Below the pieces are notes generated by a model. That model had not been told where the DNA came from. It did no database searches and was given only the letters and a program-made list of their open reading frames with translations. From the human T2T-CHM13v2.0 reference genome, Homo sapiens, in the NCBI RefSeq assembly GCF_009914755.1, contig NC_060925.1: a stretch of 64,000 bases of DNA; one strand, 5' to 3'. Position numbers and translations under genes: made by a program. This document shows positions 1 to 38,833 of the stretch, one piece after another; position 1 is the stretch's first letter, and each line of letters begins with the position of its first letter.

Positions 1-12363
<12,363 letters not shown>

Positions 12364-12496
12364 CTACTGCCCTGCCTGAAATTCTCTCATTTCACTTTTC
12401 CCTGCCTGGCCCCAGAGGCCCTTGAGTTTATAACCCTAATCTAAATGGCCATTCCCCTCCAACAAAGTCTTAGAAGAAGTATTTTGCCACAGACGA

Positions 12497-13471
12497 TTTA
12501 TTTTCCACAACTGTGGCCTGAGGGGCATGTGCACGTTTCACAGTTGGCGTCAGTGTCACCACCAGCTTGGGGGTTTGGAGATGGGCTCAGGGTCACTCCA
12601 GCCTGAGCAGATTGCTTCCCAGACCTTGGGCAGACAACCTAAGGCAAAGAGCCCATTGCTAAGCAAAGGGAGCTCAGGCAGCTTTGTACGTGGACCCCGT
12701 GGCAGCGCGATAGTGAAGTTCTGGCAATGAGACCTGCACGGATAACTCGTGTTGGTGGAGTCATCCAGGCACTGCAGGGCACTGGCACCCCTGAGGGACA
12801 GCACCATGCAGGTGCTGGTGGTGGAGTTGTTTGGGATGGTCACGCTGGTGCTGGGGCTGGAGTAACTCTGGGGCAAGGGGTGGTCCTGGTGGTCTAGGTT
12901 GAGGGAGCTGGCAGCCCTTTCCAGGTAGTTGGCTGCAAGCTTTGGCAGGCTCTGCAATGTCTTGTGGCAGCTGTTATAGGCATTGGGGGATTGGTCCAGG
13001 TAGTTGATGCCTTTGATGAGCTGGAGGAGTGGGGCTGGAGGAGTCCGAGGGACAATCCTTACAGAGCAGGCAGCAGGGGCTGCCCTGGAAAGCGGTCTTT
13101 CTGGCCACCTTGGGGTTCACCAGGTGACTTGTTTCTACGTACTTGGAGTAGCAGGGCCGGCCCATGCAGATTCTCCCCAGTGGAAGCCTAGTGGGGTTGA
13201 AGGGCTGCTCAGAGCAGCTGCTGCAGCTGCTGGACTCCAAGCCAGAGCCACTCCGGGTGTGGAGGCGCTTGAGGCTCTTGGCCTCATTCAGGAGGGTGCG
13301 TTTGGTCCAGCCTGGAATTTGGGCTGGAAAGGATGTGTTGTTGGGATGGCCCAAGCGGCCGTGAGTGTTGGAATGGCTCGCCTGGTATCCAGACATCATC
13401 CTGGCTGGGTGGACAAAGCTTCGTGGCTGAGCGGTGACAGTGTCTGGAGATTGGTTACTGGTTACCGGGGC
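12497..13471 (-). pseudogene. Putative unprocessed pseudogene (or unannotated gene): terminal exon encoding a Ser/Pro/Cys-rich protein of ~280-304 aa broken by one frameshift
   Basis: Minus strand: branch point and acceptor ctaactctgtccctgccag|G at 13472/13471. Frame A is open from 13471 (ATG ATG at 13399) to 12974. Frame B is open 13116-12559 and ends ...LPKVWEAICSGWSDPEPISKPPSWW-TGA (12558-12556). AATAAA at 12502-12497. No recognisable repeat in the exon. Confidence 0.7.
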
Positions 13472-15541
13472 CTGGCAGGGACAGAGTTAGTTCAGCTCAG
13501 CTGCTCTCCCTGCCGCCACCCTCCAGGCTTTCTCTCCAGGTGTTCCCTCTGCCCCCAGGGCTCCATGTCCTGCTCCTCTCGCCATCCTCCTCCCAGGCCC
13601 AGGAGTTCTCAAACTGGAAAACCGACAGCCTCTTCTTCAGAATGCACCAGGGAAAGCATGAGAGATGGGGCATAAGGCCAGACCATCATGATGACTGAGA
13701 CCAAGGGGCCCGCCTAGAAGTGGGGCAGTGCCTTCTTTTTCTTTTAGCTTTAGTCCACATTTGGAAATTCCCATTCCCCCTTGAAGCAGGTACTCCAGAA
13801 GACCACAGAGGCCAAGGACTGAATCTCTAATGGTGAAATTCCAACAGAGACACACCTGCTTTTGAGGTCATATCAAAAAGCTAACCATCAACTATGCGAT
13901 GCACCCTGATACTAAAAACTGTATCTTAGCATGGATGCAATGCTATACACACTCTCACTGTGTGCCACACTCCTCACTGGGTGTCCTCTGTGGGCTAACT
14001 CCTTTAATTCCTGCTACAAATCAAGGAGGTAGTTACTATTCTATTCCTAGCTGATGGGGAAAGTGAGACTCAGAGAGATGACGGGACTGGCCTAAGATCA
14101 CACAGCTTGTAAGTGGTAGGGTCAGGATAGCATCTTGGGTGTCTCTGTTGACCCCTAACAGACAATGTCACGTCATCACAGTGAATTCGGCCTCCCCCGT
14201 AGCCTGCTAAGGATGAATTCTCACCACACCCGCTCTGCCTGCATAGATGGGGGCCTTGGTGAGAAGTAGGGGCTATAGGTAACCCTGCTAATAAGTGGAT
14301 CCTGACTTTAAGAACCCCAAATGAGGGTGAGGGCCAGGTGGTGTGATAAGCCCGCTGATGGGGCTGGATTATGAGATCAGAACTTTTCGAGGGATTTAGC
14401 CTGGGTCCTCTCTGAAAGTACAGAATCTCCTCACCCACCCCACAAGGGGAGAGGGAATGGGGGTTCCCACTCTTCCTGGCCCAAACGTGGGTACTTCTCA
14501 GAGACAAAGACCTGACCAGGCCAAAGAGATGTCCCATCCACTTAACCCCACCTCCTGACCCTGGGCCCAGCCAGAAGCAGTGCCATTCCCCATTGTCCCC
14601 ATTGTCCACTGGCTCCCCAGGACTCACTCCACCCCACCCCCCTAGCCAGAAGGAAGGCTCTGACTTCTCTCCCCTACTGCTACCAGCTTGATGTGGATCT
14701 TCCATGTCTGCCTAGTGAAAAGAGAGCAGTGTTTAAGCACATCCCACCCATCAAACAGCTGCCTGCCCTCCTTCCAGCCCGGGCCCCTCAGCTGCCCTTG
14801 TCTTTTGGGTCTGATATGGGTGGAATGTCCAGACCCTTGCCTCTTTCCTGCCTGGTCCAACCCCACCAGATCTCCTCCTCTGGAAAAGTAAGAGGCCAGG
14901 GAGGGCTAATCCCTGCAGGACCCTGCCCTTCCCTCTCCTACTGCCTGGTCCCCGCCTGCCACCAGGGGCCTCTCCCTTCTCACTCTGTGTTTTAGGAGGT
15001 AGATGATTTAGACCTCCTCTTGCTCTCCTCGAGGGATGCCCTCATGCTGCCACTCTGGACTGCTGACCATGTCATGGAATCATGAAATCCTAGAGCTGGG
15101 AGGGGCCTTCGAGGTCATCCTGGTCAGGCCCCTGCCTCAGGGCCAGAGCCACTTTAAGCCTGCCAGGACAGATGGGCCCTATTTTTGAAACAAGGGTGGA
15201 GTGGCTGTCTTCCAGCGTTTGCTATTGGTTTTCTCAGTTTAATTATGCCAAGAGCCAGGAAGATCTACGCTAGCTCAAATATAACTCCGGTCAGCCTCAA
15301 TCTCAGGACTCTTCAGGGAGCAAATTTCAGAACTTTCAAAACCCAGTGCCTCTCATTGGGGCCTCTGGTCTATAAGAGGCATTCAGTACATATTTGTTGA
15401 ACGAATGAACAAGATTCTCATTTGAGGTCTCATAATAGGTGCCAGGAAAAGACTCTCCCCATCATTTGCTTCCCTCAAATGTTGAATATATACAGTTGTA
15501 GTTTTTATTTTGAAAAATGTTGACTTACTGAAAACTTATAA

Positions 15542-16257
<716 letters not shown>

Positions 16258-16571
16258 TAATCCACCCATCTTGGCCTTTCAAAGTGCTGGGATTATAGGC
16301 ATGGCTACTGTGCCTGGCCAACAAGGACATTTTCTAGCACACCATAATGATCAAATTCAGGACACTGAACTTCACTATAGTACTATTATCAAATCTACAG
16401 CCCATATTCAAATTTCACCGATTGTCCCTCTAATGTCCTTCATGGCAATTATTTTCCTGATTCAGGATTCATTTCGGGATCAGGCATTGCATTGAGTTCT
16501 TATGACTCTTTGGGCTCCTTCGACCTGGAATCATTGCCTTTCTTTGTCTTTTATGACTTTGACATTTTTGA

Positions 16572-38609: not shown

Positions 38610-38833
38610 ACTCCACACCACCTGTGCGGCCACCTGTTGGAGGGAACGCTAGGTCCTTCCTTTGGCTGTCACTCCTCCATCTGCAGTGAGTGAGAACTGT
38701 GGCCTTGGACCATGGGAGACCTGCATTTCCACCACCTGTTCTGGGAGTGGGGCCCAGTCAGCCCCCTTTGCTTACCTTCTGCCCTATATTAGAGCCCCAG
38801 GTTCTGTGCCCTTTTCCTATCATCGCAAAACTC
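38610..38833 (+). promoter_or_regulatory. CELA3B: CELA3B proximal promoter (acinar type) and 5' UTR
   Basis: TATATTA 38785-38791; E-boxes CACCTG at 38619, 38631, 38733 near TGGGA elements (PTF1-like); TGGCCTTGG 38700-38708 (NR5A2-type site, reverse CCAAGGCCA). Confidence 0.7.

What the first reader, a model, noticed from the sequence alone, without database searches (positions are those of the whole stretch)
12480..13500. Hidden minus-strand gene in the 'intergenic' interval, disabled by a single frameshift
Seen in sequence: a ~1-kb repeat-free island on the minus strand with branch point and acceptor (ctaac...tctgtccctgccag at 13472). Frame A is open from the first exon base: APVTSNQSPDTVTAQPRSFVHPAR-MMSGYQ...CSSCSEQPFNPTRLPLGRICMGRPCYSKYVETSHL...GSPCCLLCKDCPSDSSSPT. 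An overlapping frame B (open 13116-12559) reads ...LQLIKGINYLDQSPNAY...LPKLAANYLERAASSL...KLPELPLLSNGLFALGCLPKVWEAICSGWSDPEPISKPPSWW*. AATAAA follows 54 nt after the stop. Joining the frames gives ~280 aa from the ATG (304 from the acceptor) with no internal stop. Inference: an ancestral protein-coding gene with Cys clusters and a Trp-rich C-terminus, recently inactivated, or still making a truncated 141-165 aa product; as the last exon it would probably escape NMD. I recall an uncharacterised mouse testis gene (1700013G24Rik) just upstream of Hspg2 in the matching position and orientation; this is unverified.
Basis: partly seen in the sequence, partly recalled or inferred. Interest (0 to 1): 0.85.

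Follow-up and report, generated by a model that had tools for sequence, protein, structure and literature searches.

The report
Broken human copy of testis gene
Between HSPG2 and CELA3B lies the only human copy of a small gene that other placental mammals keep intact; a five-base loss has broken it, which is an ordinary kind of gene loss that RefSeq does not annotate here.

Summary
On the minus strand, frame A (ATG 13399, open to TAA 12976-12974) and frame B (open 13116-12559, TGA 12558-12556) each match one protein family, and only in the expected frame. The family is about 270-300 aa, called 'uncharacterized protein' and found in placental mammals (42 and 65 hits; gelada E=1.9e-75).

The frames change where orthologs read T-F-L-D-Q-L-I. 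In human, 4 nt stand where the 9 nt for F-L-D should be, a net loss of 5 nt. A stop follows 17 codons later. It removes 45 of the 61 most conserved columns and both predicted helices.

CHM13 holds no second copy.

No human or ape protein turned up. The family has no Pfam, PDB or Atlas match.

Best reading: a unitary pseudogene of a fast-evolving gene. It is probably the counterpart of mouse spermatid gene 1700013G24Rik, but that link rests on recall, not on sequence. The date of the break, transcription in human and polymorphism could not be tested.

It is a new member of a known kind, of modest interest.

The parts
14984..15070 (-). Candidate exon 1; its 5' end and the start of transcription are unknown. 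It holds an upstream ATG at 15070-15068 and an in-frame TAA at 15010-15008, and it ends before the donor GTGAGA at 14983-14978.
   Evidence: tblastn of panda isoform X1 residues 1-19 gave 15 of 19 identical, E=4.5e-7, in the 64-kb window. The translation is MVSSPEWQHEGIPRGEQEEV*IIYLLKHR. Landmarks were checked. The exon end at 14984 is inferred from the GTGAGA donor and from panda ...KDR lying next to human ...KHR.
13472..14983 (-). Inferred intron of 1512 nt, GT...AG, with CTAAC at 13490-13486 and AG at 13473-13472.
   Evidence: Sequence read. Panda residue 29, and fox and sea lion residue 3, align to the first codon after the AG, and the sequences differ upstream of it. No transcript data; inferred.
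12480..13471 (-). Exon 2, the last exon, holding the whole former coding sequence and the 3' UTR. The 3' end near 12480 is only inferred from the poly(A) signal.
13028..13399 (-). N-terminal half of the former coding sequence in frame A (124 codons, MMSGYQ...SDSSSPT). The second ATG, 13396-13394, corresponds to M1 of the orthologs.
   Evidence: BLASTP to gelada P0001 residues 1-125: 109 of 125 identical, 87%. Alignment; coordinates.
13024..13027 (-). The break. Four bases (C + CTC) stand where orthologs have the 9 nt for F-L-D, a net loss of 5 nt, so the reading passes from frame A to frame B.
   Evidence: Three-frame translation of 12990-13060. Alignment with 60 orthologs. F126, L127 and D128 are invariant in 40 of 40 sequences of A1. 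Coordinates.
12974..12976 (-). Premature stop TAA in frame A, 17 out-of-frame codons after the break.
12556..13023 (-). C-terminal half of the former coding sequence in frame B (QLIKGINYLD...SKPPSWW) with the ancestral stop TGA 12558-12556.
   Evidence: BLASTP to gelada P0001 residues 128-271; E=1.9e-75 in the database search; alignment.
12497..12502 (-). AATAAA poly(A) signal starting at the 54th base after the ancestral stop.
   Evidence: It is the only minus-strand AATAAA between 7130 and 15504.

Best explanation
Window 12480-15070, minus strand, is the human remnant (a unitary pseudogene) of a two-exon gene that placental mammals keep as a single copy. The gene encodes a fast-evolving, mostly disordered protein of about 280 aa. 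The human copy keeps its start codon, both halves of the coding sequence, the ancestral stop and the poly(A) signal. It has lost a net 5 nt in the codons for the F-L-D motif that opens the best-conserved part of the protein. Translation from the ATG therefore shifts frame after residue 124 and stops 17 codons later. Any product (141 aa) lacks the two predicted helices and the conserved Trp-rich C-terminal motif. Shown here: homology, the place and size of the break, single copy in this genome, and what the truncation removes. Inferred: loss of function, the exon structure, and the parent gene's role in spermatids, which is taken from the mouse gene 1700013G24Rik and rests on a recalled position, not on sequence.
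For: Frame B found 42 proteins at E<=0.001 among 55 candidates, all 'uncharacterized' mammalian proteins of 202-307 aa, the best being gelada at 1.9e-75. Frame A found 6 of 7 candidates, all from the same family. A profile of 40 members found 65 of 656 candidates, all placental mammals. Frame A residues 26-148 match gelada 1-125 at 87%, and frame B residues 30-186 match gelada 128-271. The out-of-frame tails do not match. The break falls on F-L-D, invariant in 40 of 40 sequences. Of the 61 columns conserved at 90% or more in 57 non-anthropoid sequences, 45 lie beyond the break. AlphaFold2 on the horse ortholog gives helices only at 125-140, 154-168 and 264-267, all beyond the break (mean pLDDT 47.6). 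A six-frame search of CHM13 with the gelada protein gave 2 matches from 17 scored candidates, both at this locus. The gene tree follows the species tree, with human next to gelada. Support is 100 for anthropoids and for primates; no support value was read for the human-gelada pair. An upstream exon is conserved with panda, and the junction fits the acceptor. No human or ape protein appeared in any of the three searches, and RefSeq has no gene here (and the annotation supplied). Of 8 polarised human-lineage substitutions, 5 fall in well-conserved columns, against 2 of 13 for gelada (Fisher p=0.056).
Against: No transcript, ribosome or population data could be consulted, so loss of function is inferred from sequence only. 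Apart from the one break, the 840 nt are clean, with no other stop or frameshift. That fits a recent loss, a polymorphic lesion or residual constraint equally well. The human terminal branch (0.054) is no longer than the gelada branch (0.063). Conserved-site departures in human (8, three of them at the break) lie within the range of intact orthologs (0-12). The contrast in where substitutions fall weakens to p=0.12 when the substitution at the break is dropped. Synteny of the orthologs could not be checked because the protein searches give no genomic context. Matches in closed regions of the reference are not shown, so 'single copy' has that limit. Absence of ape proteins is weak evidence: many candidates without a named source were left out before scoring (185, 25 and 4753).
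Confidence: 0.85

Rival explanations
1. The locus is still a working gene in humans and makes a truncated N-terminal protein: 141 aa from ATG 13399, of which 124 aa are ancestral and 17 aa are new. The protein would keep or have gained a function.
For: The ATG and frame A are intact. The premature stop lies in the last exon, where by the established 50-55 nt rule nonsense-mediated decay is not expected. The splice and poly(A) signals are intact.
Against: The retained half carries only 16 of the 61 conserved columns and no predicted structure. No protein of this kind from human or any ape was returned. RefSeq annotates no gene here.
Confidence: 0.07
2. The 5-nt loss is not fixed. Either it is an allele carried by CHM13 while intact alleles still segregate in people, or it is an assembly error.
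For: There is only one lesion in 840 nt, and no further decay.
Against: No human protein of this family is in the named public sources searched. An intact allele in GRCh38 would probably have been annotated, since it is in marmoset and mouse lemur. The break is not in a homopolymer. Not testable here, because reads and other assemblies are off.
Confidence: 0.05
3. The full-length protein is still made by a programmed +1 ribosomal frameshift between 13116 and 12977.
For: The two frames overlap over 13116-12977, so a +1 shift in that interval would join them.
Against: The orthologs need no frameshift; their proteins read straight through. The invariant F-L-D would still be missing. No recoding signal was looked for or seen, and Rfam gave nothing in 11000-16500.
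Confidence: 0.01
4. It is a duplicated or processed pseudogene of a gene that is intact elsewhere in the human genome, or the two open frames arose by chance.
For: None beyond prior frequency: most human pseudogenes are of these kinds.
Against: This is the only locus in CHM13. An upstream exon and an intron are retained. E-values reach 1e-75.
Confidence: 0.01

Closest known systems
Human unitary pseudogenes: single-copy genes lost in the human or ape lineage while orthologs stay intact. GULOP is the textbook case, and catalogues of about 76 or more exist. Both points are recalled, not looked up here.
   Same: Single copy, at what appears to be the ancestral place. It is disabled by a small lesion, has no working paralog, and has intact orthologs across mammals.
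   Different: It was not found named in print by my searches, and RefSeq does not annotate it. Catalogue lists sit in supplements, which I could not see. It has only one lesion, where old unitary pseudogenes usually carry several.
Mouse 1700013G24Rik. [quoted passage not shown]
   Same: PMC4717865 (passages read) lists it among mouse chromosome 4 genes together with Hspg2. PMC5526581 found human orthologs for only 12 of its 13 genes. Muroid members of the family were found, including hamsters, voles, Acomys and Psammomys.
   Different: No Mus or Rattus protein was returned, so identity with this family was not shown by sequence. Which of the 13 genes lacks a human ortholog is stated only in a figure that I could not see.
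Marmoset LOC118143221 (P0002, 273 aa) and gelada A0A8D2E5T5 (P0001, 271 aa), the nearest intact relatives returned.
   Same: 75.1% and 88.8% identity to the two human pieces over aligned columns. Both have the same start, the same C-terminal ...SKPPSWW, and read straight through T-F-L-D-Q-L-I.
   Different: They are continuous open frames. The gelada model lacks 12 residues (SPSTSVTIPNNS...) that human and marmoset have. That could be a real deletion or a device of the gene model.

Membership tests
Unitary pseudogene | Clear homology to a protein-coding gene that is intact in other species | tested here: met
   42 of 55 and 65 of 656 candidates passed E<=0.001, with E down to 1.9e-75, and both halves matched.
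Unitary pseudogene | A lesion that disables the reading frame | tested here: met
   A net loss of 5 nt at 13027-13024 in the F-L-D codons, followed by a premature TAA at 12976-12974.
Unitary pseudogene | No intact parent or paralog in the same genome | tested here: met
   The six-frame search of CHM13 with P0001 gave 2 matches from 17 scored candidates, both at this locus. Limit: closed regions are not shown.
Unitary pseudogene | Lies at the place of the orthologs (conserved synteny) | not testable with these tools
   The protein searches give no genomic context, and no other mammalian genome is on hand. The mouse position is recalled only. The gene tree follows the species tree, which fits orthology.
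Unitary pseudogene | Lesion fixed in the species | not testable with these tools
   Reads, other assemblies and variant tables were not available.
Processed (retrotransposed) pseudogene | Intronless copy of a spliced parent gene that lies elsewhere | tested here: not met
   No parent elsewhere. The homolog of the upstream exon lies 1.5 kb away, across a GT...AG interval.
Orthologue of mouse 1700013G24Rik | Sequence similarity to the mouse protein | not tested
Orthologue of mouse 1700013G24Rik | Testis or spermatid expression of the locus | not testable with these tools
   The mouse data come from passages of PMC5526581. No human expression data were on hand.

The most novel reading that the evidence does not exclude
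The break is young or not fixed. Either intact alleles of a spermatid protein conserved across placentals still segregate in humans, so that the locus is a natural knockout bearing on male fertility, or hominoids have kept the 124-aa N-terminal half as a shortened protein with a function of its own.
Probability: 0.08. Interest if true: 0.6.

Novelty: new member of a known kind. Interest (0 to 1): 0.35.

Why it matters
It adds one well-documented case to the list of genes lost on the human lineage, in a stretch where RefSeq annotates nothing. It also gives a rough picture of an unnamed protein family found only in placental mammals in these searches: about 280 aa, mostly disordered, with two central helices and a Trp-rich C-terminal motif. 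If the link to mouse 1700013G24Rik holds, findings on that mouse spermatid protein do not carry over to humans. The locus would also be a useful marker for dating relaxed constraint on testis genes in primates. As gene losses go it is unremarkable, because testis genes turn over fast.

Tried and rejected
Family and fold. Pfam gave nothing for the human pieces, for four intact orthologs or for the 223-aa plus-strand ORF; the only hit was a sub-threshold Rad50 zinc hook at E=0.098 in marmoset. A profile search of PDB sequences gave only Mdm2 at E=0.4, taken as chance. Two ESM Atlas searches gave no usable hit. AlphaFold2 with 53 sequences gave mean pLDDT 47.6 and pTM 0.13, so I ran no fold search on it. 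Rfam gave nothing in 11000-16500.

Dating the break. No primate DNA was available. I tried proxies at the protein level: departures at conserved sites, branch lengths and where polarised substitutions fall. They lean towards relaxed constraint on the human branch but are not significant, and anthropoids as a whole look accelerated.

Rough neutral expectations, built on recalled DNA divergences, put neutral amino-acid identity near 86% for human and Old World monkey and near 76% for human and marmoset. The observed values are 88.8% and 75.1%. I give this only as a hint, because the divergence figures come from memory.

Literature. '1700013G24Rik' or '1700013G24' occurs in 3 papers, none about the human locus. 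'LOC690206' occurs in 0 papers. No paper holds 'unitary pseudogene' together with HSPG2 or CELA3B; all 20 papers listed of the 21 found lack the pseudogene term. Supplementary tables, where catalogues of unitary pseudogenes list their genes, were closed and may bear on novelty.

Donor site. I first took the donor to be GAG|GTCTAA at 15014/15013, where the tblastn match ends. I dropped it in favour of AGA|GTGAGA at 14984/14983, because the panda protein continues for 9 more residues (...LPPKDR) that line up with human ...YLLKHR.
Full report
1. The observation. I read 12300-13700 on the minus strand and listed its ORFs.

Frame A is open from 13486, after TAA 13489-13487, through the proposed first exon base 13471 and the ATG at 13399. 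It ends at TAA 12976-12974, giving 141 aa from the ATG.

Frame B is open from 13116 to 12559 (186 aa). It ends ...SKPPSWW, followed by TGA 12558-12556.

That AATAAA is the only one on the minus strand between 7130 and 15504.

RefSeq places no gene between the HSPG2 start, 877 bases before the window, and CELA3B at 38816 (and the annotation supplied).

2. What it is. Frame B, searched alone, found 42 proteins at E<=0.001 among 55 candidates. All are 'uncharacterized' or 'hypothetical' proteins of mammals, 202-307 aa long. The best are gelada (1.9e-75), marmoset, tamarin and galago.

Frame A, searched alone, found 6 of 7 candidates, all from the same family. A profile of 40 members found 65 of 656 candidates. 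By my own knowledge of mammal classification these cover Afrotheria, Xenarthra, Laurasiatheria and Euarchontoglires.

No marsupial, monotreme or non-mammal appeared. No human or ape protein appeared either, and gelada is the only catarrhine. These blanks are weak evidence. The search is word-based and bounded by length, and 185, 25 and 4753 candidates without a named source were left out before scoring.

3. The break. BLASTP puts frame A residues 26-148 on gelada residues 1-125 (109 of 125 identical). It puts frame B residues 30-186 on gelada 128-271. The 17 residues of frame A after ...SSSPT and the first 29 of frame B match nothing.

Orthologs read ...SSSPT-F-L-D-Q-L-I-K-G-I-N-Y-L-D. Human reads ACT (T, 13030-13028), then C (13027), then CTC CAG CTC ATC (13026-13015; L-Q-L-I in frame B). 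So 4 nt stand where the 9 nt for F-L-D should be, a net loss of 5 nt. F, L and D are invariant in 40 of 40 sequences of alignment A1.

There is no other stop or frameshift in either half. The other length differences are in frame. One is a 2-residue loss (NPSPTRL in gelada against NPTRL in human). The other is a second M at the start, which otter and sea lion also have.

4. Gene structure. Panda isoform X1 (P0044) has an N-terminal extension. Its first 19 residues match window 15070-15014 on the minus strand, with 15 of 19 identical and E=4.5e-7.

The human frame there reads MVSSPEWQHEGIPRGEQEEV*IIYLLKHR and is followed by GTGAGA. The panda continues ...GCQLPPKDR and then ASVASLEASS....

In global alignments, that A in panda, and the A after 'MK' in fox and sea lion, fall on the first codon after the human AG at 13472. 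Upstream of that point the species differ.

I infer a two-exon gene: exon 1 ending at 14984, a 1512-nt GT...AG intron, and exon 2 from 13471. The upstream ATG is closed by TAA 15010-15008 in human. Most orthologs are annotated from M-S-G, so exon 1 is probably 5' UTR. No transcript was available, so this structure is an inference.

5. One copy, vertical descent. A six-frame search of the whole CHM13 assembly with the gelada protein gave 2 matches out of 17 scored candidates. Both are the two frames of this locus; closed regions are not shown.

I built a maximum-likelihood tree of 60 orthologs plus the human pieces (283 columns, JTT+G4). Six partial rows were dropped first. The tree recovers primates (support 100) and anthropoids (100), places human next to gelada (no support value was read for that pair), and groups rodents, lagomorphs, carnivores, ungulates, bats, afrotherians and xenarthrans much as in the species tree. 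This fits a single-copy orthologous gene and rules out a processed or duplicated copy.

6. What the truncation removes. Among 57 non-anthropoid sequences, 61 columns are conserved at 90% or more. Of these, 16 lie before the break and 45 after it.

AlphaFold2 on the horse ortholog with 53 sequences gives a low-confidence, mostly coil model (mean pLDDT 47.6, pTM 0.13). Its only helices are at 125-140 (FLDHLIKGINYLDRS...), 154-168 (LPRLAANYL...) and 264-267. All three lie beyond the break, and the first begins at the lost F-L-D.

The family has no Pfam, PDB or Atlas match. The likeliest mechanism of the parent protein is therefore binding through short conserved helices and the C-terminal motif KLPELPLFGNGLFSLGRLPKFWEAIRSGW..EPISKP.SWW within a disordered chain. 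That is inference.

7. Link to mouse. Passages of PMC5526581 describe 1700013G24Rik as follows. It is testis-specific by RT-PCR and immunoblot, and the protein appears at day 28 in round spermatids. [quoted passage not shown] The same paper found human orthologs for 12 of its 13 genes. The text does not say which gene lacks one.

PMC4717865 (passages) lists the gene among chromosome 4 genes, as it does Hspg2. PMC11036721 (one passage) names it as a hub gene in adult testis.

I also recall the mouse gene lying between Cela3 and Hspg2. No Mus protein was returned by any search, though, so the identity remains a well-motivated but untested lead.

8. When and how far gone. The family evolves fast everywhere: horse-rhino 82.0%, elephant-dugong 81.8%, marmoset-tamarin 91.2%, human-gelada 88.8% and human-marmoset 75.1%.

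The anthropoid stem (0.17) and catarrhine stem (0.095) are long. The human terminal branch (0.054) is no longer than the gelada one (0.063).

Human departs from the conserved consensus at 8 of 61 columns, three of them at the break. Gelada departs at 5, marmoset at 6 and tamarin at 7. The other 57 sequences have a median of 2 and a range of 0-12.

Of 8 substitutions polarised to the human branch, 5 fall in columns conserved at 80% or more, where a uniform spread predicts 45%. Of 13 on the gelada branch only 2 do (binomial p=0.027 for depletion).

The contrast between human and gelada gives Fisher p=0.056, or 0.12 without the substitution at the break. This leans towards constraint in gelada and none in human, but the numbers are small.

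A single lesion in 840 nt argues against a very old death. With recalled primate substitution and indel rates I would expect two or three further disabling hits since the split from Old World monkeys. That is a rough argument from memory, not a computation on data.

9. Rivals. A functional truncated protein is possible in principle. The ATG is intact, and the stop is in the last exon, so by the known rule nonsense-mediated decay is not expected. But the protein would keep the least conserved half, and no such protein is on record.

A polymorphic or assembly-specific lesion cannot be excluded here. A +1 recoding would still lack F-L-D. Chance ORFs and a copy of a gene that is intact elsewhere are excluded.

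10. Verdict. This is a unitary pseudogene, not annotated in RefSeq, of a placental-mammal gene that is probably spermatid-specific. It is a new member of a well-known kind. Interest is modest.

Noticed in passing
window 14984-15070 (-): The upstream exon is better conserved with panda (15 of 19 residues) than the coding sequence is (about 55%). In human it forms a short upstream ORF closed by TAA 15010-15008. It may be conserved as a promoter-proximal or 5' UTR element and not as coding sequence.
   Followed up: partly
window 12556-13399 (-); proteins P0001 and others: Human and gelada share C where most mammals have R at three well-conserved positions (D-RPS, GRLPK, AIRSGW) and where they have Y at a fourth (RPY). 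These are catarrhine-stem changes, and the R-to-C ones have the form expected of CpG transitions. They hint that constraint eased before the split of humans and Old World monkeys.
   Followed up: partly
protein P0001 (gelada), residues about 183-186: The gelada model lacks 12 residues (SPSTSVTIPNNS...) that human, marmoset and tamarin have. This could be a real in-frame deletion, or a small intron put into the gene model to step over a lesion. In the latter case gelada too may carry a damaged gene.
   Followed up: no
protein P0043 (Galeopterus variegatus, 327 aa): This colugo protein carries an internal tandem duplication of about 42 residues (APRRTANYLERATNSLNLDNL...SYSIPRANMATSDK, twice) that the other colugo (P0005, 285 aa) lacks. 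It is either an assembly artefact or a recent duplication.
   Followed up: no
window 13004-13675 (+): A 223-aa open frame runs antisense to the former coding sequence. It has no Pfam match and is most simply a by-product of the G+C-rich (about 60%) coding-derived sequence on the other strand.
   Followed up: partly
window 38816-60459 (+), chr1:21800816-21822459: Some predicted CELA3B transcripts (Gnomon XM/XR models) run about 9 kb beyond the end of the curated transcript, towards CELA3A. They cross the 7SL and U6 pseudogenes. I did not look into it.
   Followed up: no
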